This document shows, in pieces, positions 244 through 24,365 of a stretch of DNA of 64,000 nucleotides; the stretch's first letter is position 1, and the number at the start of each line of letters is the position of its first letter. The DNA is from a virus. The notes under the pieces are model-generated. The model saw only the letters and a list, made by a program, of their open reading frames with translations, searched no databases and had not been told where the DNA came from. The position numbers and the translations under genes are program-made. The stretch lies in the IMG/VR virus record IMGVR_UViG_3300034060_000588, positions 1 through 64,000 of that record, one strand, 5' to 3'.

Positions 244-882
244 TCATATTATATCGTTTAAATTTGAACCCCGCAAAAATACAGCACTTTTTCCAGTTTT
301 ACTAATATTTTCAAGGTCATTGTTTATTTTTATTAATTCTTTTATTTTTTCATTTTTTTCTGTGAGTTCTTTTCTCAATTTTTGTAAGGTTTCTTGTAAC
401 ATTTTCTCATTACTATTGTCTAACTTTTGGTCTAAAGAATGTCTAACATCATCTAACTCTATATTCTTTTTAGACATTTCATTTTCCAAGTATTTGATTT
501 TTTCAAATAGTTCGTTTTCACCACTTTTATCACTAATATATTCTACTTTTGTGACAACTTTTTCTACTGGAACTTCTTTTATAATCTCCTTTTCAATAAT
601 AACTTCCTTAATTACTTCTACCTCCTTGATAACCTCAACCGGTACTTCCACCCGTATTTCACGGATTACCTCAATTTCTACCTGTTTTTCAACAACAATA
701 CCCGTTTTTAAGTCTTTTTCATCACCATTAAGTGTTTTTCCTAAAAGTCCGTACTTCTCAATGTTAAACCCAGTGTCAAAACATTTCTTAATAAAACCAT
801 CAACATCTTCAATATTATTGATCTTACAATATGTTGATACTACCTGAATAACACTTTTACTAAAGATCTGTTTCATTTTCAA
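244..882 (-). CDS. Hypothetical protein with (V/I)E(V/I)IKE repeats and coiled-coil C-terminus
   Basis: 212 aa ORF; VEVIKEVEVIKEVIIEKEIIKEVPVEKVV low-complexity repeat. Confidence 0.75.
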   Translation of the reverse strand: MKMKQIFSKSVIQVVSTYCKINNIEDVDGFIKKCFDTGFNIEKYGLLGKTLNGDEKDLKTGIVVEKQVEIEVIREIRVEVPVEVIKEVEVIKEVIIEKEIIKEVPVEKVVTKVEYISDKSGENELFEKIKYLENEMSKKNIELDDVRHSLDQKLDNSNEKMLQETLQKLRKELTEKNEKIKELIKINNDLENISKTGKSAVFLRGSNLNDII

Positions 883-1363
883 TTAAGTCTTTATCTGAAA
901 TGGTTATTAACTCTTTATCAAAATTAGGTTCTATTGTTTTTATTTTATCTTCAATTTGTGTGAACTTAGTCCATATAATATTACCTTCGGAGGGTTGGTT
1001 ATATGTGTTATCTACTAAATACTGAACAATAGTGTTGCCCTCTAAAGTAATAAATCCGTGAGCATATCCTTTAGGTATGTAAATCTCATCTCCTGAAGCC
1101 ATTTCAAAAAATTCAATTTCAGAGTTGTTTTCAGTCCTCATATCAAAAACAAAATCTAATATTTTGCCACTAATAACTTTAATTAATTTTGATTGTTCAT
1201 ACTCGCCTCTTTGGTAGTGTAAACCTCTAATTGTCCATTTCTTTAAACTAAAACTGACGTTACTTTGTAACCAATTTTTATCTAAAGCTTTTAATGATAG
1301 TGGACTAAACGACCCTCTATGGTCAAAAAATATATTGTTTTTAAGTCTAATCGTTGTTTCCAT
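860..1363 (-). CDS. rmlC: dTDP-4-dehydrorhamnose 3,5-epimerase family (cupin)
   Basis: FFDHRGSF, QSNVSFS, TIRGLHYQ, QSKLIKVISGKILD, YIPKGYAHGF motifs. Confidence 0.92.
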   Translation of the reverse strand: METTIRLKNNIFFDHRGSFSPLSLKALDKNWLQSNVSFSLKKWTIRGLHYQRGEYEQSKLIKVISGKILDFVFDMRTENNSEIEFFEMASGDEIYIPKGYAHGFITLEGNTIVQYLVDNTYNQPSEGNIIWTKFTQIEDKIKTIEPNFDKELITISDKDLIENETDL

Positions 1364-5701: not shown

Positions 5702-6415
5702 TTTTGAACCTTTTTTTAAATTTTCTTTTGCTGATAGTGGTCTTAAATTTTTGTAATGCCAAAGTTCATATATATCGTATTCATTTGTCGCAGAATTGAG
5801 TGGTATTATATGATCGATATGCCAAGTATTATGTGCCCAATTATCCCAACTCATCCAGGGTTCAAACATATTTTCAATATAAATTTTAAATTCATCGAAT
5901 GAAACACCAAGTATTTCTTCCAATCTTTTATTTTTTTTATTTCTTTTGAGTGAAATATAAATATCTGTCCTAAATTTTCTTTTAATCTTAAAAATTATAT
6001 CTTCTATTTTTCTTTCTTTAATTCTTTTATTTTTACTCTCATAACATTTATCAATATTTTTTTTACACCATTCAGAACTCCTTTTAATTATTTTTTCTTT
6101 ATTCTTTAAATAATAATTTTTTTGATATTCTTTGACTTTTTCAAGGTTTCTAATTCTATAATCTTGACTTTTTTTTCTGTGTTCTGTTTTTTGTTCTTCT
6201 GTTTTTTCTCTACCTTTAATCAAGTTTTGTTCGTGATTCTTATAATAAATTTCTTTTCTTGTTTTTTTGATTTTTTCATTATTTTCCTCAAAATACTTTT
6301 TACTTATTGGTTTTCGACATTCTTTACATATTGTGTTATAACCATCTTTCTGGTATTTATGTTTATGAAATTCTGAAAATTCCTTTTCAATTAAACATTT
6401 ATTACATTTTTTCAT
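5690..6415 (-). CDS. HNH homing endonuclease-like protein with N-terminal zinc finger
   Basis: CNKC...CKEC, basic helical middle, WMSWDN...WHIDHIIPL...HYKNLRPLSAKENLKKG. Confidence 0.88.
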   Translation of the reverse strand: MKKCNKCLIEKEFSEFHKHKYQKDGYNTICKECRKPISKKYFEENNEKIKKTRKEIYYKNHEQNLIKGREKTEEQKTEHRKKSQDYRIRNLEKVKEYQKNYYLKNKEKIIKRSSEWCKKNIDKCYESKNKRIKERKIEDIIFKIKRKFRTDIYISLKRNKKNKRLEEILGVSFDEFKIYIENMFEPWMSWDNWAHNTWHIDHIIPLNSATNEYDIYELWHYKNLRPLSAKENLKKGSKLIF

Positions 6416-6557
6416 TATAAAAAAATTCCTTCAAAAGTTTATTTGTTAATGATGATAAATTTATATGTTTATTTTTTACCATTTTTTCAAGATCAGGTTC
6501 AATTGTTATTGATACTCTAACTTTCTTTTCTTCTGTTTTTATTTTTTTTCTACCCAT
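6402..6557 (-). CDS. Ribbon-helix-helix DNA-binding protein, CcdA/CopG-like (51 aa), not in ORF track
   Basis: MGRKKIKTEEKKVRVSITIEPDLEKMVKNKHINLSSLTNKLLKEFFYNEKM*; alternating beta strand plus INLS helix-cap motif; overlaps HNH start by 14 nt; TATTTAT motif at 6563-6569. Confidence 0.75.
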   Translation of the reverse strand: MGRKKIKTEEKKVRVSITIEPDLEKMVKNKHINLSSLTNKLLKEFFYNEKM

Positions 6558-6663
6558 ATTATATAAATATCATATTTAGTGTAAAAATATTATTTTTTTT
6601 AAAAAAAAATAAATAAACATATCAACTACACAAGTTTCTCCCTTCTTTTATATTTATTATATT

Positions 6664-6885
6664 ATGCCAACAGAAATAACAATCAACGGAATAACTGGTG
6701 CGTCACCATTTGACGTTTATGTTTGTGATCCAACAAATACCGTATGTGTTTATATAAACGAGTATAAGTCATTTGAACTTCCTGTCACATTTGAGATACC
6801 GGAGGTTTTAAGTTCGTTAAACACGTTTAATGTTAAAACTGTTGATGATAATGAGTGTGAAACAAATAATTTATTAGTAGTGTAG
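6664..6885 (+). CDS. Small beta-rich putative virion protein, paralog of 8256-8561
   Basis: ITINGITGASPFDVYVCD...CVYI vs ITINSIIGVTPPYNVYACN...CVLL; TATTTAT upstream. Confidence 0.7.
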   Translation: MPTEITINGITGASPFDVYVCDPTNTVCVYINEYKSFELPVTFEIPEVLSSLNTFNVKTVDDNECETNNLLVV

Positions 6886-6886
6886 T

Positions 6887-8254
6887 ATGCCGTGTAGTAG
6901 TGATTATTGTATTAGTGGGACAAGTTTAGTTTATGATGATACCTATGGTATTTCAGGGACATATAGTGGTTATGATTATTTTACCGGATCAACAAATGGA
7001 TATTTTATATTTTATTCCGGAACAGAAGATAGATGGTGTGTTGCACCAAATTTAGGCGATCCTTGTGAATTGTTTGGTCCTAGTCCAATTACAGACACTT
7101 GTCCGGACTTGTATGATGAATTTTTTAATTCTGGTACTTGTGTGACAACTTCAACAACAACATCACCTTGTATTGGTTTTGATTTTGATGCGGTTTTTGA
7201 TTGTGGTATTCCGCCAACACCAACCCCTTCTGTTACTGTTACACCAACGGTTACGCCAACACCGACGGTTACACCTAGTAATCCTTGTCCTGTTGCTGCA
7301 AGTATTTCGGCTATTAAAACACCGTCACAACCAACGCCAACACCTAGTTTAACACCTACTTTAACACCAGAAATAACAAGACCTTGTAATTTTAGTGGTA
7401 CGGTTCAGTACAATATTGTTGAGGGTTATATTAGATGTGCTAATTCTTCTAAATTTGAAGACTGTTTTACTGGTGAGTATTATTTTACGACTGATATTAT
7501 TTTTGATCAGAATGGTCAGGGTTTAATTGAGAACTATGTTTATGGTGGTTTTGTTGATGGTGTCTCATCTTGTTTTATATTTAGAGGTTTTGTTGAATAT
7601 ATCTCTGGTCCTAGTACGGTGAGTATTACGGCTATATATGGTTCGGCGAATGAGGGTAAATGTATTGATTGTTCTATTATACCATCACAAACACCAACAA
7701 AAACACCGACACCAACGCCAACGCCAACTCAAACATTACCTAAAAATAATTGTTTCTATTATGAAATTAATAATTATTCCGAATTATTTCAAGAATATAA
7801 TTATGTTAATTGTGATGGTATTACAGTTTCACCACAACCTTTACCACAAAAACAAGCAATAAGAATTTGTGCAAGTGCATTACCAACAGTATTTTCACCA
7901 TCTATGGTTATTACTAATTTAGGTCCTTGTCCAACACCGACACCAACACCAACAAAAACACCAACACCTACCCCATCGACATCACAACCAGTAATTTATA
8001 CTTGGTTCTATACTTTAGTGCCAAGCACAAACAGTACTTTAGCTTGTTTATCAACCGTAAGTGGATTTGTTTTATATACAGATATACCTTCATTGGTAAT
8101 TGGTGATATTTTATATACCGATCCGGCCTTAACAATACCATTTACAGGTGTTGGGTTGTGGTATAAAGTAGAACGTGATTGTATTTCTTGTTCTGATAAT
8201 TATGCAGTTCAGGTTGATGGTACTGGAAATATTTTAGATATAGTGAGTTGTTAA
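6887..8254 (+). CDS. Cys-rich putative virion surface protein with Pro/Thr-rich linkers
   Basis: Four PTPTP/TPTKTPTP tracts between Cys-containing modules; C-terminal GDILYTDPALTIPFTG...VQVDGTGNI module. Confidence 0.75.
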   Translation: MPCSSDYCISGTSLVYDDTYGISGTYSGYDYFTGSTNGYFIFYSGTEDRWCVAPNLGDPCELFGPSPITDTCPDLYDEFFNSGTCVTTSTTTSPCIGFDFDAVFDCGIPPTPTPSVTVTPTVTPTPTVTPSNPCPVAASISAIKTPSQPTPTPSLTPTLTPEITRPCNFSGTVQYNIVEGYIRCANSSKFEDCFTGEYYFTTDIIFDQNGQGLIENYVYGGFVDGVSSCFIFRGFVEYISGPSTVSITAIYGSANEGKCIDCSIIPSQTPTKTPTPTPTPTQTLPKNNCFYYEINNYSELFQEYNYVNCDGITVSPQPLPQKQAIRICASALPTVFSPSMVITNLGPCPTPTPTPTKTPTPTPSTSQPVIYTWFYTLVPSTNSTLACLSTVSGFVLYTDIPSLVIGDILYTDPALTIPFTGVGLWYKVERDCISCSDNYAVQVDGTGNILDIVSC

Positions 8255-8255
8255 T

Positions 8256-8561
8256 ATGCAAACAATAACAATAAATTCAATTATAGGGGTAACACCACCA
8301 TATAATGTATATGCTTGTAATGTCTATGGTAATCTATGTGTGTTATTGGCAACAATTATAAGTCCGGTACCACCACAAATTATACTTAATATTCCACCAC
8401 CATATGAAACGGCACCAGCTTTAGGTATAAAAATTGTTTCATCTGTCGACGATTGTGAAGATTTACATATATTATATTGTGAATCTTTAAGTGATTTTAA
8501 ATTATTTCAAGACACATTTCAATTTTATTTTCAAGATGGTTTTATTTATGAATTTCAGTAA
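8256..8561 (+). CDS. Small putative virion protein, paralog of 6664-6885
   Basis: Shared N-terminal pattern; C-terminal FQD..FYFQDG motif. Confidence 0.7.
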   Translation: MQTITINSIIGVTPPYNVYACNVYGNLCVLLATIISPVPPQIILNIPPPYETAPALGIKIVSSVDDCEDLHILYCESLSDFKLFQDTFQFYFQDGFIYEFQ

Positions 8562-8580
8562 TATTTATTAAAAAAAAGAA

Positions 8581-9615
8581 ATGGCGTTATTAACAGATAG
8601 AGTATTAGCAACTGGTGTTACGTTAAGTGATTACATTCACGTTGTAATACCGTCGGATATTTCACAAAATCCGGCTGGATCCTCATATAAAGCAACCGTT
8701 AGCCAAGTAGCTGATGTTTTTTCAAATTTATTTGTTAATCAAAGTGGTGATACAATGACAGGACCATTAATTGTTCCAACAATATCAGCAACAACCTATC
8801 AAAATTTACCTATTGGTCCAGACACATATGTTACTGGTTACACCTATAGTAGTAATACCTTTACAATAAAACAAAATAATGGTCAACCAAATTTAACAAC
8901 AACAATAAACATTGTAACAGGATGGACGGTTAATGGTAATTTAACAGTAACAGGTAATACTTCATTACAATCAACAACGGCCTCAACCTTAAACTTATCA
9001 TCAGTACCAACAACAGACGTACAATTGGTTGCACAATATTTAACAAGGGATTCGGCAACAGGGGAGGTTAAAACTAAAATAATTTCTGGTCCGGCGGCGT
9101 ATGGTTTATTTGCTCAAACGGGTGATAGTGCGGTGGTGTCAGCAACCACAACACCAACAACAATAATAGATGGTGGTGTTGGGACATTAACAGTTCCAGC
9201 AAATGGATTTACTGCGGGTGATAGTTTTCTAGCAAAACTTGGGGGTGTATTATCATCAAAGGCAAATGATGATTTAACAATTATTGTTTCTAGTAATGGA
9301 GTAACTTTAGTTAGTAGTGGTCCTATTAATATGCCGAATATTACAGTGCTTAATCCTAGTGTTTGGTTAATGGAAGTAACTTTTACGATTAGAAAGATTG
9401 GTGGTACGGGTATTGGTTCTATAGTATCTTTGGGTAATTTTACTTGGGGTAACACCACTTCGGGAGCCCAAGAAGGTTTTGGGTTTAATGATGTGAATAG
9501 TACCACCTTTAATACTACGATTTCAAATGTGTTAGATATAAAAGTACAATGGAATACTACGGATCCTCAAAACAGAATATATTCTGATGTATTCGTATTA
9601 ACTAAAACATTTTAA
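8581..9615 (+). CDS. Putative tail fibre/virion decoration protein
   Basis: FVNQSGDTMTGPL fibre-type motif, ISATTY, VTGYTYSSNTFTI, Thr/Gly-rich beta composition. Confidence 0.65.
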   Translation: MALLTDRVLATGVTLSDYIHVVIPSDISQNPAGSSYKATVSQVADVFSNLFVNQSGDTMTGPLIVPTISATTYQNLPIGPDTYVTGYTYSSNTFTIKQNNGQPNLTTTINIVTGWTVNGNLTVTGNTSLQSTTASTLNLSSVPTTDVQLVAQYLTRDSATGEVKTKIISGPAAYGLFAQTGDSAVVSATTTPTTIIDGGVGTLTVPANGFTAGDSFLAKLGGVLSSKANDDLTIIVSSNGVTLVSSGPINMPNITVLNPSVWLMEVTFTIRKIGGTGIGSIVSLGNFTWGNTTSGAQEGFGFNDVNSTTFNTTISNVLDIKVQWNTTDPQNRIYSDVFVLTKTF

Positions 9616-9650
9616 ATTCACTTTAAAGATTTTAACAATATATTTTCAAT

Positions 9651-10628
9651 ATGAAAGATATTGTATTTGTAACCGCACAACCAGATGTTCCTTACTTTCA
9701 TTGGCAAATTAAACTTTATGTTCATAATTTCATAGAAAAAGGAATTAAACCAAAACAGATACACGTTTTATTAGCACTTGTTCACGGAAAAACCGAACCA
9801 ACTTCTGGTGCAACGGAATTATTAAATATGGGTATTAATGTTCATTTCTACCAAGATTTAAGAAGTATAAAATCATATATACCAAGTATAAAACCATATC
9901 TTATTTCTAAATGGTTAGAAGAATTTCCTCAATATGGAAAATGTTTTTTTCTTCACGATGCTGACATAATCTTTAGAGAGTTACCAGATTTTAATAATTT
10001 AATGAACGATGATATTTGTTATTTATCAGACACAATTGGTTACATTGGTTATAACTACATAATAGATTGTTGTAGGAGATACGAGAAAAACCACCCAAAT
10101 TCTGAAAAAAACCAACTTTTAAATGAAATGGCCTCTGTTATTGGTATTGATCCGATCACAATAAAAATAAACCAGAAAAATTCTGGTGGTGGTCAATACA
10201 TAATTAAAAATACAGATAATAAACTTTGGGAAAAAATTTATGAAGATTGTTCACCATTATACAAACAAATGTTGACCTATCAAAGAAGGTTTCCAATCAA
10301 TCCTGGTCAAATTCAATTCTGGACAGCGGAAATGTGGTCGTTAATATGGAATTTGTGGTTATTCAATTTTGAAACTAGGATTACACCTGAATTAGATTTT
10401 TCTTGGGCTACGGATAATTTAGACAAATATAACACAAAACCAATATTACATATGGCTGGTGTTACTGAAGATTTAAAAGATAAAAAATTTTTCAAGGGTG
10501 GATATATTAATACCGACCCAATTCAATCTTTAAGAGATAACCCAAGTCACTTTGACTACGTTGAAGAAAATAGTTCTACAATCAAATACATAGAAGTTAT
10601 GAAATCTTTTATAAAAAATGAAAAATGA
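9651..10628 (+). CDS. GT-A fold glycosyltransferase resembling peptidyl-serine galactosyltransferase/hydroxyproline arabinosyltransferase (GT96/GT95-like)
   Basis: PYFHWQ, YIPSIKPY..SKWL, FLHDADIIFR (DxD), GGGQYII, WTAEMWS, ILHMAG motifs. Confidence 0.72.
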   Translation: MKDIVFVTAQPDVPYFHWQIKLYVHNFIEKGIKPKQIHVLLALVHGKTEPTSGATELLNMGINVHFYQDLRSIKSYIPSIKPYLISKWLEEFPQYGKCFFLHDADIIFRELPDFNNLMNDDICYLSDTIGYIGYNYIIDCCRRYEKNHPNSEKNQLLNEMASVIGIDPITIKINQKNSGGGQYIIKNTDNKLWEKIYEDCSPLYKQMLTYQRRFPINPGQIQFWTAEMWSLIWNLWLFNFETRITPELDFSWATDNLDKYNTKPILHMAGVTEDLKDKKFFKGGYINTDPIQSLRDNPSHFDYVEENSSTIKYIEVMKSFIKNEK

Positions 10629-10658
10629 ATTATTTATTAAATATAATATCAAATATTA

Positions 10659-12938
10659 ATGAGCACTTGTTATACTAATTGTAGTATTGTTTTAATTACC
10701 AACACAGGTGAAACCCAATCTGTTGTAAATTTTATTGATTGTAGTGGTTCCACAATTGAGGTCTATGTTGACCCTAACGATTCCTATTATATAAATTATT
10801 GTGGTGATTTTCCTTTTAGTGGTGAAAATATTGATTTTCAAACAGAGAGTACTTCATTTGATATTTATGTTTTTGAAGATTGTTGTTCCAAACCAAACGT
10901 CTTTTACACGTTTTTAAATTCGGATATTGGTAGTGGTTTAACAGTTGGTGATGTAGTATATTTTAGTGAAGTAATACCTTCGGATAATACAATTGAGCCT
11001 AAATCTGGTTGTTTTAAAGTTGCTAACATTGAGGCTGATATTAGTCTAGTGACTGGGTTTACACAACCTTATTTTTCTGTTTTACATATTGATACATATT
11101 ATACCTCTATATTTCCATGTCAAAATTGTCTTACAACACATCCTTGTCCAACAGATTGTTATAGCCTATATAGTTGTACTGGATCTTTTACAAATGTCAT
11201 AAGTAAATTACCAGATTTGTCTGGTTATACAAATGGTTTTGTTAGTTTAGACGTTTTAACACCTTCTGTTTCTGGTAATAATATCTGTTTTTATGTTACA
11301 TATCTTGGTGTTCAAAGCTGTGTTGAGACTTATGATCTAGAATTAAGTGAAGCCCCAGAATGTGATTGTAATTGTCTTTGTTATCAATTCAATACAAATA
11401 ATTATCAATTAGAAACAACATATGTTGATTGTAATAACGAATTTAATATTGTTAATTTTGATACATATAGTAATGTTAGAATTTGTAGTAAAATAAGACC
11501 TTATTTTAACACACAGTTACCAATTGGTTATAAACTGGGTGGTTATTGTGTTAATAATAATTGTCCTGAAGTAATAGTACCAAACATCCAACCAGTAAAT
11601 GAATGTGACGTTTTAACGTTATTTCCGTTATATGTTGAGTGTGTTAATGAGCTTCCTAGTGATAGATTTTCATTTGACGGCTCGGTTTCTTTAATAATAA
11701 CCGGTGGTACGCCACCATATGTTATAACTTGGGATACTGGTAGTGTTTCACAATCTATAAACGACCTAGATTTTGGGTCTTATACCGCAACAGTCGTTGA
11801 TTATTATGGTGATTTTAGTGCAACAACAACTTGTGTTTTAAGTTCAACAACGACAACAACGTCAACAACAACATTACCACCACAACCGGAACAATATACT
11901 AATTTATGTTTCTATATTGATTTTACAAACCCACAAATACCGGATAGATATATTGATTTTTCTTTTGCTGGTTATTATAACGATAAACCTTATTGGCAAA
12001 GTCAATTTCCTTTAGATTTTCAAATTGTTTGGGATGATACATTTTCTTTCTGGTTTATTTCCGGACTTACATATGGTCAAATAACAACTTTAAACCCTAG
12101 TTCACCACCACTTACTGGTTGGCAAACTTTTGGGTTTTTACCACCATTTACAACAAATGGTGTTTATGCTTATACCGGATCTTGTAGTCAGATTCCAATT
12201 ACAGATTTACAAATTTTAAAGGGTGATCCCACTTGTGGTTGTGATGGATCAATTACACTTATACCAAGTAATGGTATTCCGCCATATCAATATTCAGTTA
12301 ATGGTGGTAATTCATATACTTCAATACCAATTTTTAACAATTTATGTTCTGGGTTATATCCGGTTCAAGTTTTAGACGCTTCTGGTAATACAATAACATC
12401 ACAAATTACATTACCTCTAACACCTAGTACAAAAACATATACAATATCATTAGTTGTTGATGCAATCACACAAACTTTTGAGGTTTTAGTAAGTCCGGTA
12501 CTTCCCGCTGGTGTTACAATAGACTTTAAATTAGTCCATAACCGATTGTTTCGTAGAGGACCAAATCAAAACAGTGCAACATATACCAATACTTTAACCG
12601 TTTATGTTGGTCCGCCAATTATTTTACCAACACCTTTTGATTCTGATAGTTATATTTATTTGCAGGAAAATTTACCATACCCTTGTGAAGTATACAATAG
12701 GTACACAACTGAAAGTTATTTTGAATGGGATTTAACTATGAGCAGTTTTAATACTGTAACTGGTGGATACTCAAATTCATTTGCTTTTACTTCACCATCA
12801 AGTTGTAATAACGGTAATGGTGATTTTGGGATTTACATAGATCAAGCAAGTATAGTTGGTTGTGAGTGTTGTGAAGTAATCACAATAAACCCTAAATTTA
12901 GAATTTCATCATCTGATGACATAATTTTCGTAGACTAA
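10659..12938 (+). CDS. Cys-rich putative virion protein with SprB-like repeats
   Basis: DGSVSLIITGGTPPYVITW...DLDFGSYTATVVD; DGSITLIPSNGIPPYQYSVNGG...NNLCSGLYPVQVLDASG; poly-Thr tract. Confidence 0.72.
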   Translation: MSTCYTNCSIVLITNTGETQSVVNFIDCSGSTIEVYVDPNDSYYINYCGDFPFSGENIDFQTESTSFDIYVFEDCCSKPNVFYTFLNSDIGSGLTVGDVVYFSEVIPSDNTIEPKSGCFKVANIEADISLVTGFTQPYFSVLHIDTYYTSIFPCQNCLTTHPCPTDCYSLYSCTGSFTNVISKLPDLSGYTNGFVSLDVLTPSVSGNNICFYVTYLGVQSCVETYDLELSEAPECDCNCLCYQFNTNNYQLETTYVDCNNEFNIVNFDTYSNVRICSKIRPYFNTQLPIGYKLGGYCVNNNCPEVIVPNIQPVNECDVLTLFPLYVECVNELPSDRFSFDGSVSLIITGGTPPYVITWDTGSVSQSINDLDFGSYTATVVDYYGDFSATTTCVLSSTTTTTSTTTLPPQPEQYTNLCFYIDFTNPQIPDRYIDFSFAGYYNDKPYWQSQFPLDFQIVWDDTFSFWFISGLTYGQITTLNPSSPPLTGWQTFGFLPPFTTNGVYAYTGSCSQIPITDLQILKGDPTCGCDGSITLIPSNGIPPYQYSVNGGNSYTSIPIFNNLCSGLYPVQVLDASGNTITSQITLPLTPSTKTYTISLVVDAITQTFEVLVSPVLPAGVTIDFKLVHNRLFRRGPNQNSATYTNTLTVYVGPPIILPTPFDSDSYIYLQENLPYPCEVYNRYTTESYFEWDLTMSSFNTVTGGYSNSFAFTSPSSCNNGNGDFGIYIDQASIVGCECCEVITINPKFRISSSDDIIFVD

Positions 12939-12951
12939 TATTTATCATTAA

Positions 12952-15567
12952 ATGGCATATATAATAAAAAATACCGCTGGTTTAGTAAACTCAAGAGTTA
13001 CTGATACTGGGAGACAAAAATTATCACAAGGTAATTTCAATATTTCATATTTTCAAATTGGGGATAGTGAGGTATCATATGATAAATTACCTAGTTTTTA
13101 TAACCAGTCAAATAGTTACGTATTAGAACCTTCGTTTAACCAACAAAATAGTTTTGGTGTACCACAGTCTAACAAACAAAGTGTAAAATACCCTTATTTT
13201 GTTGATGGGATAACTGGAAATACATATGGAATACCCTTTAACGATTCAACAGCTGATCCTGTTTTTAATAGAGCACCACTACGTGGGTTTTTTACCGGAA
13301 ATACGACGGCTAGTACAGTAAATTGGAGTGCGTTAACAAACGATAGTTATGTTATAACGTCAAACTATGTTGTGGATTTAATGTTTATGACTGGATCTAC
13401 TGATGTTGAATTAATTTATATGAGTTGTAACCCAACTAATTATAGAAAGCCTTCGGTTGGTGATATTATTACCTTCTATTACGATGGTTACGCAAAATCT
13501 AACTGTGGGTGTTCAAACTTACCAACACCTACACCAACAAGTTCTCAATTTGCCCCACCAACACCAACTCCTACACCAAGTGCTAGTATACCACAGTATC
13601 CTTGTTTAACTGCATCGCCTACACCGACACCAACGTCAACACCTTGTGTAACGCCGTCATCTAGTGCTGCGTGTCCTGCGCCGCCACCACCTAATTGTAG
13701 TATGTCTATGTTTAGTTGTTTCCCAATTTTAACATACAGAATTGTTGCAGTTTGTGGTGATATAATCACACTTGATAGACCAACCCCAGATTTTAGTTGT
13801 TATATGTTAGATTGTTTTGCTAGAGTATTAATCTACCCTTCTAATATGACACAATTGTATGATAGTTTTACACCAAGACCGCATTGGTGTGATGACGTTA
13901 TAAATTTTGAATCCGTTTGTGATATTGACGAATTTGACGTAAAAATATGGAATATGAACATTCCGTGGACCGAAAGTCCAGCTGGGTTATTTTCAACATT
14001 TTATAAAGATTACACACAATTTGGTTCAATAAATTATATTGGTAGTAAAGAATATTTTGGTTATAATTCAAGTTCTGGTCAGACAGACAGTAGTAGTGTT
14101 TATTATTATAATTCATTTGATCAGAAAATAACTGTAACACCAGAAGAACAAAAGGCGGTTGCAATTATTCACTACACCAACCAAACAATTGATTTCTTTT
14201 ATGGTGAGAAGTTTGCGTTAGAACCTTACGACCCAACAAACCCAAATAATACATCTGGACAAGCTAGAAATTTTAAACTTCATATTCCTTGGATTATGTG
14301 GCATAAAAATCCAGAGTGTTGTTTTGGTGATACTTTTTATGTTGATCCTCCAGGTTTTGATGGGTTAAATTTGTTTACAGTTCACTATCTAACGTCAACT
14401 AAAAATGAAGATATGAATAACCCTGGGATTAGGTATTATCATTTATGGGATACACACCCTAATGATGATGGTTACCCAAGTAGAATTGGTAAAGTCTTCC
14501 CTGATAGTAAAGTTGTTATAATTGACGACGAAGAAATTATCGCGGCAATGTCATATAAGTCAAATAGAAACTGGACTTTAGCAGCACCTCAAGTTTCACT
14601 TACAACACCAAACGTGTGTGACACACAAACGTCACCAATTGGTATTTTGACCGGTTCAAATCAAACTATGTTTGTTACATATAGATTAAGTAATGATTTT
14701 TGTTTTACAAATTCATTACATTGTAATTACTATCAAAATATATCATATAACGAATGTTTTACTGGTGATTCAAAAAATGTTGCTGTAAGATTCGGAAGTG
14801 AGTTTAATTGTTTAGTACAACCATTTGGTTATCCGGTGAGTACTACGACTACATTTCCTCAAAATACGTGTTTTATTCTTACAGAAGATACTTTAGAATT
14901 ATTAGCTGAAAATCTAGATAATTTAATTTGGTGTGAGAATCCAAATTTACTTATGACACCAGAAATTAACTCTTTCTATCAAACTGCTGGTTATTATAGT
15001 GTTGGTTTAACTTCTACCTCAACAACATATTGTCCAACTTGTGATATTTTTAATGGTTTTGTTGCGACAAAATTTGAAGTGTTGGCTCAAGTTGTTGAAA
15101 CTGGTCAAAGACCAGATCCGTCTCAATGGAGGATAATTGATTTTACATCACAAATTGAGAATCAGTTTATAAATGGTTATGTTACCCAAAATTCTTTAAC
15201 GGGATCCACATTTAGTGTAACACCAGATAACTACAATTCAGCACCTATTTACGATTTAAACGATTACATATCACTTACGCCTATTAATTATTCTGGATCA
15301 CAACTAAATTTCGGTGATGAATACTATTTTTACGGATCTTTAGAGACTGATATTCAAGCAACAATATATGAAATGAAATATAAGATAAATCTTAGCGTTA
15401 ATGAATTTAAAACCACATCAAATCCTGGTTGGGTTTCGGGTGCTAAGTCATATATTACGGAAATTGCTTTACTTGATAGTGATAAAGATGTCCTTGTGAT
15501 CTCTAAATTACAGTCACCAGTATTAAGACAGGGTATTCAACAGTTTGTAGTTAAGTTAGATTTTTAA
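12952..15567 (+). CDS. Putative tail-fibre attachment/baseplate-peripheral protein with PT-rich insert
   Basis: N-terminal VTDTGRQKLSQGNFNISYFQIGDSEV and C-terminal YITEIALLD...VISKLQSPV resemble tail-collar fibre (DUF3751-like) ends; PTPTP/PPPP tract. Confidence 0.65.
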   Translation: MAYIIKNTAGLVNSRVTDTGRQKLSQGNFNISYFQIGDSEVSYDKLPSFYNQSNSYVLEPSFNQQNSFGVPQSNKQSVKYPYFVDGITGNTYGIPFNDSTADPVFNRAPLRGFFTGNTTASTVNWSALTNDSYVITSNYVVDLMFMTGSTDVELIYMSCNPTNYRKPSVGDIITFYYDGYAKSNCGCSNLPTPTPTSSQFAPPTPTPTPSASIPQYPCLTASPTPTPTSTPCVTPSSSAACPAPPPPNCSMSMFSCFPILTYRIVAVCGDIITLDRPTPDFSCYMLDCFARVLIYPSNMTQLYDSFTPRPHWCDDVINFESVCDIDEFDVKIWNMNIPWTESPAGLFSTFYKDYTQFGSINYIGSKEYFGYNSSSGQTDSSSVYYYNSFDQKITVTPEEQKAVAIIHYTNQTIDFFYGEKFALEPYDPTNPNNTSGQARNFKLHIPWIMWHKNPECCFGDTFYVDPPGFDGLNLFTVHYLTSTKNEDMNNPGIRYYHLWDTHPNDDGYPSRIGKVFPDSKVVIIDDEEIIAAMSYKSNRNWTLAAPQVSLTTPNVCDTQTSPIGILTGSNQTMFVTYRLSNDFCFTNSLHCNYYQNISYNECFTGDSKNVAVRFGSEFNCLVQPFGYPVSTTTTFPQNTCFILTEDTLELLAENLDNLIWCENPNLLMTPEINSFYQTAGYYSVGLTSTSTTYCPTCDIFNGFVATKFEVLAQVVETGQRPDPSQWRIIDFTSQIENQFINGYVTQNSLTGSTFSVTPDNYNSAPIYDLNDYISLTPINYSGSQLNFGDEYYFYGSLETDIQATIYEMKYKINLSVNEFKTTSNPGWVSGAKSYITEIALLDSDKDVLVISKLQSPVLRQGIQQFVVKLDF

Positions 15568-15611
15568 TGTTCATTTTTAGATTAATGGGTTTATATTATT
15601 AAAAAAAGTTT

Positions 15612-16220
15612 ATGACAAAGACTATAAAAAACACACCAAAAGTTTTAGGTTTAGATGTTTCTACAAAAACAATTGGTTGGGCTTTATTTGATGTTAACAA
15701 TCAAGAATTACTAGAGTTAGCACATATTTCACCTAGACCAAAAACGGTTGACGTTGGTGATTGTAAAATGAAGGAGTTGATTTTGAAAAGTGAAATTTTC
15801 AAAACAAAACTTTTACAATATAAAAATTTAGGTGTTATAAAAGTAATCATAGAAGAACCCTTATTAAATTCAAACAACGTATATACGGTACAGACTTTAT
15901 TACGGTTTAATACTCTTATATGTAAAGAAGTTTACGATATTTTAGGAATTATCCCAGATTTTATATCAACTTATAATTCAAGAAAATTTGCTTGGCCAGA
16001 TCTTGTTCAATTAAATGATAAAGGTAAACACGTATTGTTTGGTGGTCTTCCAAAAGATATTGATAAAAAAGTATTAGTTTGGGAAAGGGTTGCTAAAAGA
16101 GAGCCCCAAATTACTTGGCATTATACAAGAAACAATACATTAAAAAAAGAAAATTTTGACCAGACGGATGCTTACACTTGTGTGTTAGGATATATGAATC
16201 AACACGAAATCTGGAAATAA
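15612..16220 (+). CDS. ruvC: RuvC-like Holliday junction resolvase
   Basis: VLGLDVSTKTIGWALFD, VIIEEP, DKK, DQTDAY acidic catalytic motifs. Confidence 0.8.
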   Translation: MTKTIKNTPKVLGLDVSTKTIGWALFDVNNQELLELAHISPRPKTVDVGDCKMKELILKSEIFKTKLLQYKNLGVIKVIIEEPLLNSNNVYTVQTLLRFNTLICKEVYDILGIIPDFISTYNSRKFAWPDLVQLNDKGKHVLFGGLPKDIDKKVLVWERVAKREPQITWHYTRNNTLKKENFDQTDAYTCVLGYMNQHEIWK

Positions 16221-16246
16221 TATCATCTAAAATAGTGATAATCTGA

Positions 16247-16277
16247 AATATCGTCTTTTTAGACGATATTTTTTTTA
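16247..16277. terminator. Intrinsic terminator between convergent genes
   Basis: AAATATCGTCT-TTTT-AGACGATATTT perfect stem followed by T run. Confidence 0.8.
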
Positions 16278-19223
16278 TACACCTCCAGCGTCAGTTATTA
16301 CCCAACCTTTAGTTGTTACAAGATAGTTTCTCGCTGTTGCTCCAGCACTTGGTGCAATACTATAGTTTGTTGTTTGAGCGTCAAATGTAACACCAGATTG
16401 TAATGAAACACCTAAAGAAGCCCAACCTTGTAATAAACTGTTATAGTTACCGGTTGTTAGTGTTGTACCACCACCTAAAAATTCGGACATAGAGGTTATA
16501 TTTGAGATAGCCCAACTTCCAACATTGTTTATCAATGTAAGGCTTGTACACCCAAATAAGAAAAAATCTAAATTTGTCATTGCTGTAATATTTGGAGTAC
16601 CAATTACAGTGTTTAAATTTAAACTTATGCATTGATAGAAATTATCGGTATCAATAAACCCAATTTGTCCCCAACTTGTAATAGACGTTATTTTTTTCCT
16701 ATCTATAGAATTTGGGTTGCCCGGTCCAAAATTCCAACCGCTAAGTGATCCGCCAGTATTTACACTAATTGTAATTGTGTAAATACCAGGTGTTATGTAT
16801 GTATGTTGTCTATTCGCATAAGACAACGGGCTTGTATTTCCGTCACCCCAATTAATCGTACCATTAGAATATGCGCCAGTTGATGTAAATGGTAATCTTA
16901 CATTATATATGTCTGTTGTTCCAAAACCAGTTAAGTTTGTATTCCAAACCATAACAAATGGTATTGGTATACCAGGTGTTTGAGACGGTGTTGGGGTCAT
17001 TGTTGGGGTCATTGTTGGTGTTAGGGTTGGTGTCATTGTTGGTGTTGGTGGTATATCACACTCAACACAAGAAATATCATAACTTATTAACAAATTGACA
17101 ATAACAGATGAATTAGTTAACTCGTTATACACTTGTGGTTCACAACCTTCTGTTTGTTGACAAAAATTGTAAATTGTCATCATATTATTTTCAATATCAA
17201 AAACAACCTCACCAATCTGACTGTATTCACTAAATAAACTTCTTAAAACATCAATCCAATCTTGTGTTGTTGGGTAATCCCCAATATTTGTTGAGGTGTA
17301 AAAAACATCTTGTTTTGTTACACCATCAACTATAGTTTCAGCCACAAATACGGCGTTATTTAATACACAATTAAAATCGTCTGTTGTTAAAGAATAAAAC
17401 CCTTCATTATATAACTGACTTACAGATCTTTCACCTATAGTTCCATTACTTTCAAAATTTCCTTCACAAACATTATAAATTTGGTAACTAGCGACTTGTT
17501 TAGTTCCGGTTAATTTAACTGTTTTTGTTTTAGAACAAAAAGTACTATCAACAACTTCAATAACATAAGTACCAGCTGTAAGACCAGTAACTTGTGCACC
17601 GACTTGTCCGTTAACATTAGCACTCCAAATATAACCAAATGGTGGCGTACCATCAGTTGGGAAAACTTTTATAACACCATCATTACCCAAACTAGGTTGT
17701 TGTGTGTATGGTATAAAATCAACACCACTTGATTGTGTTATAACAAAATTTTGACTTTGTGAACAACCATCAGCATCTGTTACAATAGCGGTATAAAAAC
17801 CAGCACATAAATTATTATATGTTGTAACTGGTGATGTTGGGAATCCGTCAATTTGATATGAATATGGTAATGTACCACCGGTTGATACAGTAATTTGTAC
17901 TGCACCATTACATAAACCACAAGTTGTACCTGTTGTTGTTACACCGGTAATTGTAAATTTATTAGTATTAGATACCGTTGTTGTTCCCGTATAAGCACAG
18001 CCGCTTCCATTATCAATAGTAAATGTGTAATTTCCTGAAGGTACGTTACTAAATGTTGTGTTTGTTGAATTAACAATACTCTGTTCTGTATTTCCAGACG
18101 CATCAATAAGTGTATATGTGTAAACACCGATTGGTTGACCTCCGTTTACTATAATTTCAATAGTTCCATCTGAACCATTACAATTTGAATTTGTCGTTGT
18201 TACACTACCAAAACTAAATGAGTTTGGTGTTACTAATAAGACGGTGTCTGTTGTTGTACAAAGTCCTGCGTCTGTAACTAAATAGTTAAACAGACCGGAT
18301 GGTAACCCGCTAAACGTATATGTGTCTGAAAAAGAAATTTCAACCGTCCCATTGGATCCTGAATAATAAAATGGTGCCGTACCTCCAGTTACAATAAGTG
18401 TTATTTCACCATCGCTTGTAAAACAACTAGGTGGTTTTGTATTAATACTTACAACACCAATAGGTAATACATAATCAACATCAACAGTTTTTGATAGTGA
18501 GCAACCATCTGAATCGGTGACGGTAACCCCATAACTTCCTGCTGTAAGTCCGGTAATATTATCTGTGGTTGCACTATTGCTCCATAAATAAGTGTATGGT
18601 GGCGTACCAGTTGTTCCGGTAATAAATATTTTTCCAGCCCCAGTGCCTACAACACAACTTGCGTCATTCACAACGTAAAAACCATAATCTAAAGTATTTG
18701 AACTAAAAACAAAAACACTAGCACTCGTACCTGTACATCCCCCACCATCATCTCCGATAAAATAATATCTACCAGGTGTTAAAGGACTTACTGTGTTTAT
18801 TGCGTTTACTGTTTGTCCACTTGAGATGTAACCTAATGTTGTTTCATAGAGTTCATAATATCCACTACCATAAAATGGGTTAAACTCAAACTCAATAATT
18901 CCATTATCTTCACCACAAGTTGTGTGGGTTACATCATTAATCTGTATTGTACTACCAGAAGAAATCGGTATGTTTAAATAGGTTACTGTGGGTGCTGGTG
19001 ATACACAACTATCTTGTATTTCTAATACATATGTACCAGCGGTAAGACCACTAAAATAATATGTTGTTGTTGCTGCCGATGTTGGTAAAAGGCCAGATGA
19101 TGATGTTTCTGATACCGTATATGGTGCTGTACCACCGGTAATTTCAATATATATTTCACCAACCCCAGTACTTGTACAGTCACCGGTTATAAAAAGATCA
19201 TATGTTATAAATCCACATCCCAT
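16275..19223 (-). CDS. Putative virion adhesin: SprB-like repeats, PT linker, PKD and BspA/DUF285-like C-terminus
   Basis: Multiple GTPPYTYLWSN...TGLTAGSY.VTVTDSDGC repeats; TPTMTPTLTPTM; INWGDG...HTY..PGIYTI; FYQCISL...WAISNITSM...NYNSLLQGW...WVITDAG. Confidence 0.78.
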   Translation of the reverse strand: MGCGFITYDLFITGDCTSTGVGEIYIEITGGTAPYTVSETSSSGLLPTSAATTTYYFSGLTAGTYVLEIQDSCVSPAPTVTYLNIPISSGSTIQINDVTHTTCGEDNGIIEFEFNPFYGSGYYELYETTLGYISSGQTVNAINTVSPLTPGRYYFIGDDGGGCTGTSASVFVFSSNTLDYGFYVVNDASCVVGTGAGKIFITGTTGTPPYTYLWSNSATTDNITGLTAGSYGVTVTDSDGCSLSKTVDVDYVLPIGVVSINTKPPSCFTSDGEITLIVTGGTAPFYYSGSNGTVEISFSDTYTFSGLPSGLFNYLVTDAGLCTTTDTVLLVTPNSFSFGSVTTTNSNCNGSDGTIEIIVNGGQPIGVYTYTLIDASGNTEQSIVNSTNTTFSNVPSGNYTFTIDNGSGCAYTGTTTVSNTNKFTITGVTTTGTTCGLCNGAVQITVSTGGTLPYSYQIDGFPTSPVTTYNNLCAGFYTAIVTDADGCSQSQNFVITQSSGVDFIPYTQQPSLGNDGVIKVFPTDGTPPFGYIWSANVNGQVGAQVTGLTAGTYVIEVVDSTFCSKTKTVKLTGTKQVASYQIYNVCEGNFESNGTIGERSVSQLYNEGFYSLTTDDFNCVLNNAVFVAETIVDGVTKQDVFYTSTNIGDYPTTQDWIDVLRSLFSEYSQIGEVVFDIENNMMTIYNFCQQTEGCEPQVYNELTNSSVIVNLLISYDISCVECDIPPTPTMTPTLTPTMTPTMTPTPSQTPGIPIPFVMVWNTNLTGFGTTDIYNVRLPFTSTGAYSNGTINWGDGNTSPLSYANRQHTYITPGIYTITISVNTGGSLSGWNFGPGNPNSIDRKKITSITSWGQIGFIDTDNFYQCISLNLNTVIGTPNITAMTNLDFFLFGCTSLTLINNVGSWAISNITSMSEFLGGGTTLTTGNYNSLLQGWASLGVSLQSGVTFDAQTTNYSIAPSAGATARNYLVTTKGWVITDAGGV
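16985..17052. repeat. 12-nt coding tandem repeat (TPTM/TPTL)
   Basis: GTTGGGGTCATT x2, GTTGGTGTTAGG, GTTGGTGTCATT. Confidence 0.8.
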
Positions 19224-23151: not shown

Positions 23152-23188
23152 AAATTAATATTTAACAATTTTATTTTATTATAAATAG

Positions 23189-24364: not shown

Positions 24365-24365
24365 T

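What the first reader, a model, noticed from the sequence alone, without database searches (positions are those of the whole stretch)
6664..19223. Candidate phage protein O-glycosylation system: SERGT1/HPAT-like glycosyltransferase among mucin-like virion proteins
Seen: ORF 9651-10628 is the only transferase-like gene inside a block of putative virion genes, and has a DxD motif (HDAD) plus PYFHWQ, YIPSIKPY..SKWL and WTAEMWS. Its neighbours (6887-8254, 10659-12938, 12952-15567, 16275-19223) all carry PTPTP, TPTM or poly-Thr/Ser tracts between Cys-rich modules. Knowledge, recalled: plant peptidyl-serine alpha-galactosyltransferase (GT96) and hydroxyproline arabinosyltransferase (GT95) show similar YFDWQ / YPAINKP..HWL / LDADM / WISEMY motifs and glycosylate Pro/Ser-rich extensins; virion glycosylation by phage-encoded GTs is known in some mycobacteriophages. 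Inference: this phage O-glycosylates the PT/S linkers of its surface proteins to stiffen or shield them or to aid adhesion, and rmlC at 860-1363 may feed the sugar supply.
Basis: partly seen in the sequence, partly recalled or inferred. Interest (0 to 1): 0.85.

Follow-up and report, generated by a model that had tools for sequence, protein, structure and literature searches.

The report
Phage sugar-transferase beside threonine-rich virion proteins
A large uncultured phage encodes, among its fibre-like genes, an unnamed sugar-adding enzyme that in many unrelated phages sits next to head and tail proteins carrying threonine runs, so these phages probably sugar-coat their own particles, although no sugar has been measured.

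Summary
ORF 9651-10628 (325 aa) has the stated motifs, and 5 of the 65 ORFs of the 83-kb record carry Pro/Thr tracts, all of them beside it.

The ORF has no Pfam family but matches phrog_4417, "unknown function". Its AlphaFold model (pLDDT 97) is a GT-A glycosyltransferase. It is closest to the GT8-like group: glycogenin, Skp1 GlaT1, UGGT, GlyE, LgtC, WbbM. A conserved DxD and an invariant His are present.

Independent support comes from other phages:
- In 8 of 8 phage loci with a homolog, the gene lies in the structural module, and capsid, tail-tube or neighbouring proteins carry poly-Thr runs.
- None of 7 relatives without the gene has such runs.
- In bacterial genomes, 28 of 36 short forms but only 3 of 43 long fused forms have Thr-run neighbours.

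The most likely role is cytoplasmic O-glycosylation of Thr/Pro-Thr tracts on virion proteins. This is inferred; no glycan has been shown.

The rmlC link is speculative.

This scan has noted the same family and the same idea before, on other DNA. I found no paper describing it.

The parts
9651..10628 (+). 325-aa soluble GT-A glycosyltransferase with no signal peptide or TM segment visible in the sequence. DxD at D103/D105, invariant H267. Member of phrog_4417.
   Evidence: E=4.3e-69; pLDDT 97.3; glycogenin Z 14.8, Skp1 GlaT1 Z 14.5, UGGT 14.3, GlyE 13.7.
6887..8254 (+). 455-aa Cys-rich protein (5.1% Cys, 35% P+T+S) with four Pro/Thr linkers (nt 7208-7291, 7313-7372, 7679-7744, 7919-7996) and a TTSTTTS run. 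Candidate acceptor. Virion role inferred.
   Evidence: No Pfam family; weak PHROG hits of unknown function.
8581..9615 (+). 344-aa T/S-rich (30%) protein directly upstream of the enzyme gene, without a dense tract. Function unknown.
   Evidence: no family, no solved relative.
10659..12938 (+). 759-aa SprB-repeat protein directly downstream of the enzyme gene, with an S/T run followed by a Pro-rich stretch (aa 395-411, nt 11841-11891). Candidate acceptor.
   Evidence: PF13573 SprB, E=9.5e-8.
12952..15567 (+). 871-aa core protein of the lineage with a 52-aa Pro/Thr region bounded by Cys (aa 187-238, nt 13510-13665) and a second Thr-run region (aa about 622-700). In relatives, both regions vary in length and swap Pro-Thr tracts for pure Thr tracts at the same positions.
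   Evidence: (2692 relatives at E<=0.001 among 8000 scored candidates, all unnamed). Fold not obtained (pLDDT 47).
16275..19223 (-). 982-aa SprB/PKD-repeat protein with a 28-aa Pro/Thr(Met) linker (aa 724-751, nt 16971-17054). It is the last gene of the minus-strand run of ORFs that holds the baseplate wedge gene. Probable distal fibre or adhesin.
   Evidence: SprB, E=4.9e-24; weak PKD_4 and DUF285.
32551..34389 (-). Baseplate wedge subunit. Context that marks the neighbouring minus-strand ORFs as tail genes.
   Evidence: phrog_219, E=9.8e-18.
860..1363 (-). dTDP-4-dehydrorhamnose 3,5-epimerase-like (RmlC) gene. A possible sugar-nucleotide function, with no shown link to the enzyme.
   Evidence: PF00908, E=2.3e-29.

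Best explanation
ORF 9651-10628 encodes a soluble, metal-dependent (DxD) GT-A glycosyltransferase of an unnamed phage family (phrog_4417). It is made late in the infected cell's cytoplasm, together with fibre and tail genes. There it transfers a sugar from a nucleotide-sugar onto Thr (or Ser) hydroxyls in the Thr runs and Pro-Thr linkers of the phage's own surface proteins.

Candidate acceptors here are the four neighbouring tract-bearing ORFs, and possibly the tail sheath. The result would be mucin-like, stiff, protease-resistant and hydrophilic stalks on the particle.

What is shown:
- the fold, the conserved catalytic-type residues, and family membership;
- the gene's position among tract-bearing genes;
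- the co-occurrence of the short phage form with Thr tracts on capsid, tail-tube and fibre proteins in many unrelated phages, and the absence of such tracts in relatives that lack the gene.

What is inferred:
- that the tracts are the acceptor;
- that this enzyme starts the glycan (it is the only recognisable transferase in four complete small phage genomes);
- the retaining (alpha) chemistry suggested by the GT8-like fold, the sugar, and the biological benefit.
For: Enzyme:
- The AF2 model has pLDDT 97.3 and pTM 0.94.
- VIA-align against 48,161 chains gives glycogenin-1 Z 14.8 (rmsd 3.8, 227 aligned), Skp1 alpha-galactosyltransferase 6mw8 Z 14.5, UGGT 14.3, WbbM 14.1, GlyE 13.7, LgtC 13.4 and PBCV-1 capsid-glycosylating A64R 11.1. 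Foldseek agrees.
- In 54 aligned relatives, D105 and H267 are invariant and D103 is at least 90% conserved.
- Long relatives are fused to other sugar-transferase domains: PF11397/GT60 in 3 and O-FucT in 1 of 10; Glyco_transf_7C in 7 of 72, plus GT2, GT29 and GT25; GT1, GT2, GT6 and GT32 types among 16.

Link to virion Thr tracts in cultured phages:
- The homolog lies directly after the major tail protein in phiFL1A, 1706 and phiCTP1, and after it with one small poly-Thr ORF between in SA2 and TPWB06. It lies after the capsid gene and one small poly-Thr ORF in iLp84, and between the head genes and the head-tail connectors in VPE25.
- 8 of 8 such loci hold 2-3 ORFs with Thr runs (18 of 157 ORFs). 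These are mostly C-terminal tails of capsid and tail-tube proteins.
- 7 whole genomes that share the phiFL1A-type tail-tube protein but lack the gene have 0 of 424 ORFs with such runs.

Link in bacterial genomes (79 loci):
- Thr-run ORFs make up 42 of 435 ORFs within 2 kb of the gene, 15 of 359 at 2-5 kb, and 4 of 663 at 5-10 kb.
- 28 of 36 short forms (up to 365 aa) have a Thr-run ORF within 5 kb.

Reverse test: of 58 viral stretches with an in-frame run of at least 8 Thr, 5 have the gene directly adjacent. None of 22 stretches without an in-frame run has it.

Sole transferase: no PF00535, PF00534 or PF01501 gene occurs in this record or in VPE25, phiFL1A, 1706 or phiCTP1.

This window and lineage. 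Pro-Thr and pure Thr tracts interchange at the same loop positions of the conserved 871-aa protein.
Against: - No glycan, mass shift or glycostain exists for any phage carrying this family. I found no paper on it.
- The structural neighbours with tied Z include LPS/O-antigen enzymes (WbbM, LgtC), so the fold does not fix the acceptor.
- In bacterial genomes, 40 of 43 long fused forms (Chitinophaga, Pedobacter, Sphingobacterium, Acidimicrobiia MAGs) have no Thr-run ORF within 5 kb. The family as a whole is therefore not tied to Thr tracts.
- 8 of 36 short forms also lack Thr-run neighbours (four of those contigs are under 7.5 kb).
- Most poly-Thr ORFs in viral contigs (53 of 58) have no family member in the short stretch fetched.
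- In this window the tracts are internal Pro-Thr linkers, which are common plain spacers, rather than the C-terminal pure-Thr tails seen in siphophages.
- Virion status of the tract ORFs is inferred. The model of 12952-15567 failed.
- The control genomes are few and related: four are one genus (Coetzeevirus), two are streptococcal prophages, and one is SPP1.
Confidence: 0.62

Rival explanations
1. The enzyme glycosylates a non-protein acceptor of the host envelope (LPS/O-antigen, capsule, teichoic acid) or a small molecule. The Pro-Thr and Thr tracts are plain flexible linkers that merely share the late operon.
For: WbbM (Z 14.1) and LgtC (Z 13.4) tie with the protein-acting hits. Long fused bacterial forms mostly lack Thr-run neighbours (3 of 43 have one within 5 kb) and look like polysaccharide-synthesis enzymes with several transferase domains. 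Pro-Thr linkers are common spacers (general knowledge).
Against: - The gene sits inside late structural modules of virulent phages (VPE25, 1706, SA2), not in lysogeny or early regions.
- Thr runs appear in 8 of 8 carriers and in 0 of 7 non-carrier relatives.
- There is a steep distance decay of Thr-run ORFs around the gene.
- The protein has no membrane segment.
Confidence: 0.17
2. The enzyme does glycosylate virion proteins, but as an elongating step on a sugar first attached by a host enzyme. It is not the peptide-initiating transferase.
For: Several of the closest folds (GlyE, Skp1 GlaT1, XXYLT1, UGGT) extend an existing protein-linked glycan (their functions are from entry titles and general knowledge). 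Many relatives are fused to a second transferase domain.
Against: Four complete carrier genomes have no other GT2, GT4-type or GT8 gene. Carriers span Bacillota, Bacteroidota and Actinomycetota hosts, so a common host initiating enzyme for cytoplasmic poly-Thr is unlikely. Glycogenin, the top hit, does initiate on protein.
Confidence: 0.12
3. The enzyme modifies phage DNA (base glycosylation) to evade restriction.
For: Phage transferases often do this, according to a passage of PMC12619734. The record also has a C5 cytosine methylase.
Against: - The gene lies in late structural operons, not among early or nucleotide-metabolism genes.
- None of the ORFs I scanned matched a hydroxymethylase. These scans did not cover every ORF of the record.
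- The link to Thr tracts would be unexplained.
Confidence: 0.03
4. The protein is a non-catalytic structural or assembly factor that merely keeps a transferase fold.
For: It lies between tail-tube and chaperone genes. One record annotates a homolog as 'major tail protein' (phiFL2B).
Against: DxD, His and other pocket-type residues are invariant or nearly so across relatives of 30-80% identity. The annotation of phage 1706 lists orf14 as 'unknown', while its neighbours are 'structural protein'.
Confidence: 0.03

Closest known systems
Virion glycosylation of mycobacteriophages (Che8, Corndog, Myrna; Freeman et al. 2023, Cell Host Microbe). The paper is not held; I know it only from passages that cite it in PMC12619734, PMC12894461 and PMC13313380, and from recall.
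   Same: Phage-encoded transferases modify the phage's own particle. Glycans sit at the C-termini of capsid and tail-tube subunits (passage of PMC12619734). This matches where the poly-Thr tails lie in siphophages that carry this family. A methyltransferase accompanies the transferase there; this record also has a CmcI-like methyltransferase.
   Different: The hosts differ (here Bacteroidota-type jumbo phage, Bacillota phages and others). In this window the tracts are internal linkers of fibre-like proteins. Whether the transferase families are homologous was not tested, because no Che8 sequence was at hand. Nothing has been measured here.
GT8-like retaining GT-A enzymes that act on proteins: glycogenin, GlyE of the pneumococcal serine-rich-repeat adhesin pathway, Skp1 alpha-galactosyltransferase GlaT1, UGGT, XXYLT1.
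   Same: Best structural matches (Z 13.7-14.8). Soluble enzymes with DxD. GlyE-type enzymes decorate long Ser/Thr-rich repeats of surface adhesins in the cytoplasm (general knowledge), which is the closest working analogy.
   Different: No sequence-level membership: Pfam GT8 (PF01501) does not match, and identity to these chains is 8-12%. Z values are tied with the LPS enzymes LgtC and WbbM.
Chlorovirus PBCV-1 A64R, a virus-encoded cytoplasmic transferase for the major capsid protein.
   Same: A virus-encoded soluble GT-A enzyme that glycosylates the virus's own structural protein. Structural match Z 11.1.
   Different: Eukaryotic virus, a different acceptor type (recalled) and a much weaker structural match.
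Plant/algal hydroxyproline O-arabinosyltransferases (HPAT, GT95, PF23452) and peptidyl-serine alpha-galactosyltransferase (SERGT1/SGT1, GT96).
   Same: Both would glycosylate Pro/Ser/Thr-rich extended tracts of surface proteins. A language-model neighbour cluster has PF23452 on 10% of its members.
   Different: PF23452 is not matched by this protein, by 54 + 72 relatives, or by 8 phage homologs. GT96 could not be tested.

Membership tests
GT-A fold nucleotide-sugar glycosyltransferases | Single Rossmann-like alpha/beta/alpha domain superposable on solved GT-A enzymes | tested here: met
   Model pLDDT 97.3. 107 chains at Z>=8; the top 25 rows listed are all glycosyltransferases. 358 Foldseek matches at E<=0.001.
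GT-A fold nucleotide-sugar glycosyltransferases | DxD metal/nucleotide-binding motif | tested here: met
   H-D103-A-D105 in the window protein. D105 invariant and D103 at least 90% conserved in 54 relatives. Both at least 90% conserved in 150 and invariant in 72.
GT-A fold nucleotide-sugar glycosyltransferases | C-terminal His completing the metal site | tested here: inconclusive
   H267 is invariant, but I had no residue-level superposition to show that it matches the metal-binding His of GT8 enzymes.
phrog_4417 (phage protein family, unknown function) | Full-length HMM match | tested here: met
   E=4.3e-69, residues 6-319 on profile positions 3-290 of 293.
CAZy GT8 / Pfam PF01501 | Sequence match to the family model | tested here: not met
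   No Pfam hit at E<=0.1. PF01501 finds nothing in the record, although it rings in 5 control genomes. Only the fold is alike.
GT95 HPAT / Pfam PF23452 | Sequence match to the family model above its cut-off | tested here: not met
   0 of 54 at E<0.1 (one at 0.38); 0 of 72 at E<=0.01; 0 of 8 phage homologs at E<=0.1. Six-frame searches found nothing, but their controls rang nowhere, so they say nothing. Profile-profile comparison was not possible, because no HPAT sequences were at hand.
GT96 SERGT1/SGT1 | Homology to peptidyl-serine alpha-galactosyltransferase | not testable with these tools
No model or tool-supplied sequence of this family was available.
Phage virion glycosylation systems (mycobacteriophage type) | Phage-encoded transferase within or beside virion structural genes | tested here: met
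   Here: between fibre-like genes, with the baseplate genes adjacent. In 8 of 8 cultured-phage loci: inside the head-tail module.
Phage virion glycosylation systems (mycobacteriophage type) | Glycan demonstrated on virion proteins | not testable with these tools
   Needs mass spectrometry or glycostain. No report was found.
Phage virion glycosylation systems (mycobacteriophage type) | Acceptor tags at the C-termini of capsid and tail-tube subunits | tested here: inconclusive
   C-terminal Thr tails are present in relatives. In this window the tracts are internal linkers, and no capsid or tail-tube gene was identified among the ORFs scanned; the record is 28% complete.

The most novel reading that the evidence does not exclude
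A widespread, still unnamed phage GT-A family together with poly-Thr or Pro-Thr 'glyco-tags' forms a portable mucin-type self-glycosylation module. It has been grafted many times onto capsids, tail tubes, sheaths and fibres of phages infecting Bacillota, Bacteroidota and Actinomycetota, including abundant freshwater jumbo phages. Under this reading many phage particles, among them well-studied Enterococcus, Lactococcus, Staphylococcus and Lactobacillus phages, are glycoproteins.
Probability: 0.5. Interest if true: 0.85.

Novelty: new variant of a known kind. Interest (0 to 1): 0.7.

Why it matters
Virion glycosylation by phage-encoded enzymes is so far established mainly for some actinobacteriophages, where it affects antibody recognition. 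If this family does the same, particle glycosylation would be common. It would then occur in therapeutic and dairy-relevant phages (Enterococcus VPE25-like, Staphylococcus 6ec-like, Lactococcus 1706, Lacticaseibacillus phages) and in abundant aquatic jumbo phages.

The consequences would touch phage stability, adsorption, mucus adherence, immune clearance, and the mass-spectrometric identification of virion proteins.

The idea is directly testable in culturable phages, with one gene and one short tag. The pair could also serve as a compact tool for cytoplasmic O-glycosylation.

Tried and rejected
- Sequence search of the enzyme and of its profile against solved structures gave only chance hits: ATP synthase gamma at E about 0.7, and TAL repeats at E=0.01 on one low-complexity stretch.
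- Megablast of 6000-26000 against 50,697 phage records found no match.
- The HPAT kinship was tested by HMMER only and not found. The six-frame PF23452 searches are void, because the control rang nowhere.
- I tried to establish what the tract proteins are. Sequence searches against solved structures for 12952-15567, 8581-9615 and 16275-19223 gave nothing usable. An AlphaFold run on 12952-15567 with a 30-row alignment gave pLDDT 47, so I ran no fold search on it.
- DNA glycosylation and seroconversion were considered and set low, because of the gene's position in late structural operons of virulent phages.
- Eight literature searches found no paper on this family or on poly-Thr tails of phage proteins. 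This covers only the held library.
- Freeman et al. 2023 is not held. Supplementary files were not opened. The orthogroup tables of the 'moraphage' paper (PMC12619734) might show whether this gene is one of its four core transferase groups. I did not test whether this record belongs to that lineage.
- Complex prediction, the look-up of sequencing runs, read laying and the RNA tools were not used.


Full report
**What the window is.** The window is the first 64 kb of an 82,961-base IMG/VR virus record, which CheckV rates 28% complete. GC content is about 31%. The record carries:
- a baseplate wedge gene, 32551-34389;
- a baseplate hub gene and a 1109-aa tail sheath gene;
- replication genes: RNR, DnaB, primase, gp32-like, family B polymerase.

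It is therefore a piece of a large contractile-tailed phage. SprB repeats point to a Bacteroidota host. So do relatives in a Chryseobacterium phage and in Flavobacteriales, Chitinophaga, Pedobacter and Sphingobacterium genomes. This host assignment is inferred.

**The observation.** A simple window test finds dense Pro/Thr/Ser tracts in 5 of the 65 ORFs of the record. All five lie within 6887-19223, around the enzyme gene.

The arrangement is conserved. All 60 distinct related IMG/VR loci with enough downstream sequence have a tract ORF within 3.5 kb. Tract ORFs make up 227 of 521 ORFs within 6 kb, against 41 of 428 farther away. These loci are kin, so this shows conservation, not independent recurrence.

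The tract-bearing partners vary greatly in length. The enzyme and the 871-aa ORF 12952-15567 are conserved. Within that 871-aa protein, two loop regions change length from 13 to 128 residues and swap Pro-Thr tracts for pure Thr tracts at the same positions.

**What the ORF is.**
- It has no Pfam family at E<=0.1. It matches phrog_4417, "unknown function", end to end at E=4.3e-69.
- The family is large: 1229 relatives at E<=0.001 in the word-indexed search, and 832 cluster representatives in the exhaustive one. None of the listed relatives is named.
- An AlphaFold model built on 54 diverse relatives is very confident (pLDDT 97.3).
- It is a GT-A transferase. The nearest solved chains are human glycogenin-1 (Z 14.8), Skp1 alpha-galactosyltransferase (14.5), UGGT (14.3), WbbM (14.1), GlyE (13.7), an Anaerococcus GT8 protein (13.6), LARGE1 (13.6) and LgtC (13.4). 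PBCV-1 A64R scores 11.1. Foldseek gives the same set.
- Rows within one Z unit are tied. The fold therefore says "GT8-like GT-A", not which acceptor.
- D105 and H267 are invariant and D103 is nearly so.
- Long relatives carry extra transferase domains (GT60-like PF11397, O-FucT, Glyco_transf_7C, GT2, GT29, GT25, GT6, GT32, GT1), a sulfotransferase, or radical SAM/SPASM domains. This fits a role in building glycans.

**Evidence on the acceptor from unrelated phages.** tblastn finds homologs in 77 phage records, all below 60% identity. Most are siphophages of Lactobacillus, Enterococcus, Staphylococcus, Lactococcus and Clostridium.

I inspected eight loci. In every one the gene is inside the head-tail module:
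- directly after the major tail protein in phiFL1A, 1706 and phiCTP1, and after it with one small poly-Thr ORF between in SA2 and TPWB06;
- after the capsid gene and one small poly-Thr ORF in iLp84;
- between the head genes and the head-tail connectors in VPE25;
- among unannotated genes in Chryseobacterium phage MA9V-3.

In all eight, 2-3 ORFs carry Thr runs (18 of 157 ORFs). Typically these are the last 8-25 residues of the capsid and tail-tube proteins. They also occur in the protease or scaffold protein and in small proteins made almost wholly of Thr.

The annotation of phage 1706 calls the homolog "unknown", while its neighbours are "structural protein". This fits an enzyme rather than a particle component.

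As a control I searched for phages that share the phiFL1A-type tail-tube protein. I fetched seven whole genomes from genera absent from the enzyme's hit list, or of unknown status. They were two streptococcal prophages, Pediococcus cIP1, Lactobacillus phiJL-1, ATCC8014 and phiLpTT2, and SPP1. None has the gene, and none of their 424 ORFs has a Thr run. In the six annotated records the tail-tube gene is followed directly by the chaperone gene (17.5 in SPP1, so named from recall); phiLpTT2 carries no gene annotation. Four of these controls belong to one genus, so the number of independent contrasts is about three or four.

**Bacterial genomes give a second, wider test.** Of 185,579 species genomes, 131 stretches encode a relative. 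I analysed the best 80, of which 79 had a callable ORF.
- Thr-run ORFs fall off steeply with distance from the gene: 42 of 435 within 2 kb, 15 of 359 at 2-5 kb, and 4 of 663 at 5-10 kb.
- The link belongs to the short, phage-type form. 28 of 36 loci with an enzyme of up to 365 aa have a Thr-run ORF within 5 kb. Only 3 of 43 loci with longer, fused enzymes do.
- The window's enzyme is a short form.

The long bacterial forms probably serve other acceptors. This limits any claim about the whole family.

**Reverse test.** Among the 80 listed of 118 viral stretches containing nine ACN codons, 58 have an in-frame run of at least 8 Thr. Five of these have the enzyme gene directly adjacent. None of the other 22 has it. 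Poly-Thr tracts are thus much commoner than this enzyme.

**Sole transferase.** No GT2, GT4-type or GT8 Pfam gene is present in this record or in the complete genomes of VPE25, phiFL1A, 1706 and phiCTP1, while the control genomes rang for each family. If the tails are glycosylated by phage functions, this enzyme must start the glycan.

The incomplete record does hold three other sugar-related genes, none of which I could link to the enzyme:
- an RmlC-like epimerase, 860-1363;
- an HtrL/YibB-like protein;
- a CmcI / rhamnosyl-O-methyltransferase-like protein, near 80-83 kb.

**Mechanism proposed.** A soluble late enzyme uses a nucleotide-sugar and a divalent metal (DxD) to O-glycosylate Thr/Ser in extended tracts of the phage's surface proteins before or during assembly. 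The tracts become stiff, hydrophilic, protease-resistant stalks or a glycan fringe.

The closest working analogies are two:
- cytoplasmic decoration of serine-rich-repeat adhesins by GT8-type enzymes such as GlyE;
- the glycosylated C-termini of mycobacteriophage capsid and tail-tube subunits.

The mycobacteriophage case I know from passages citing Freeman et al. 2023 in PMC12619734, PMC12894461 and PMC13313380. The paper itself is not held.

The fold, the conserved residues, the synteny and the co-occurrence are shown. The acceptor, the sugar, the stereochemistry and the benefit are inferred.

The proposed kinship with plant GT95/GT96 enzymes is not supported by what I could test.
- PF23452 (HPAT) matches none of 54 + 72 relatives or 8 phage homologs at the thresholds used.
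- The only hint is a language-model neighbour cluster with PF23452 on 10% of its members, and another with DUF7164.
- No profile-profile test was possible, and GT96 could not be tested at all.

Failing this membership test does not weaken the functional analogy with enzymes that glycosylate Pro/Ser/Thr-rich extended proteins.

**Earlier notes of this scan.** After I had found the poly-Thr link, a look-up showed that the scan has flagged the same family with the same reading in at least eight other windows of other genomes. Those notes are unchecked AI notes. They gave me the PF23452 lead, which I tested with a negative result at HMMER level. My own tests reproduce their claim that the enzyme comes and goes with Thr runs.

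**Novelty and limits.** In the held library I found no paper on this family, on phrog_4417, or on poly-Thr tails of phage structural proteins. Subscription papers and supplements were not visible.

The kind of system, phage self-glycosylation, is known. New here would be the enzyme family, the Thr/Pro-Thr tag and the breadth of hosts. Everything rests on sequence, predicted structure and comparative genomics; no chemistry has been observed.

Noticed in passing
L094:16350-18644 (G000:C1:80350-82644, beyond the window): Adjacent minus-strand genes: a 553-aa HtrL/YibB-like protein (PF09612, E=3.8e-23) and a 209-aa CmcI / rhamnosyl O-methyltransferase-like protein (PF04989, E=5.5e-7). With the RmlC-like gene at 860-1363, they hint at a methylated deoxy-sugar pathway in this phage.
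   Followed up: partly
L094:122-3451 (G000:C1:64122-67451): The 1109-aa tail sheath protein (phrog_23, E=2.5e-52) carries an S/T run of 14 at aa 290 and TTTTT at aa 314, ahead of the conserved sheath domains. A definite virion protein of this phage therefore also has Thr-rich tracts.
   Followed up: partly
L087:11652-11924, overlapping the major tail gene L087:11111-11707 (Staphylococcus phage SA2); the same layout occurs in L089: A 90-aa ORF made largely of Thr runs overlaps the 3' end of the tail-tube gene, just before the transferase gene. It may be a frameshift extension of the tail-tube protein, as in SPP1 gp17.1*. That would give a minority of subunits a long Thr stalk.
   Followed up: no
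L229, L236, L240, L221, L227 and others (bacterial genomes): Long forms of the family (450-1400 aa) occur in Chitinophaga, Pedobacter, Mucilaginibacter, Sphingobacterium and Acidimicrobiia MAGs. They mostly lack Thr-run neighbours (3 of 43 have one within 5 kb), so they probably act on another acceptor.
   Followed up: partly
P0271-P0274: Four relatives of about 660 aa fuse the transferase domain to radical SAM plus SPASM domains. This is an unusual pairing that suggests coupled peptide or sugar modification.
   Followed up: no
L094:7603-8685 (G000:C1:71603-72685): A 360-aa phage protein with a complete Fe/Mn superoxide dismutase (PF00081 + PF02777) behind an N-terminal extension of about 160 aa with no family.
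   Followed up: no
window 26924-32476, 44678-51196, 51512-56563 (minus strand): Three very large ORFs (1850, 2172 and 1683 aa) with almost no family match. The only one is a weak tail-protein PHROG hit on the 2172-aa ORF.
   Followed up: no
window 12952-15567 and alignment A4: The conserved 871-aa protein has two hypervariable loops. Small Cys-bounded modules are inserted between the Thr/Pro-Thr tracts in some relatives, so the loops range from 13 to 128 residues. This looks like a display scaffold.
   Followed up: partly
window 40653-41675 (minus strand): A C5 cytosine DNA methyltransferase (PF00145, E=5.5e-60) lies among the replication genes.
   Followed up: no
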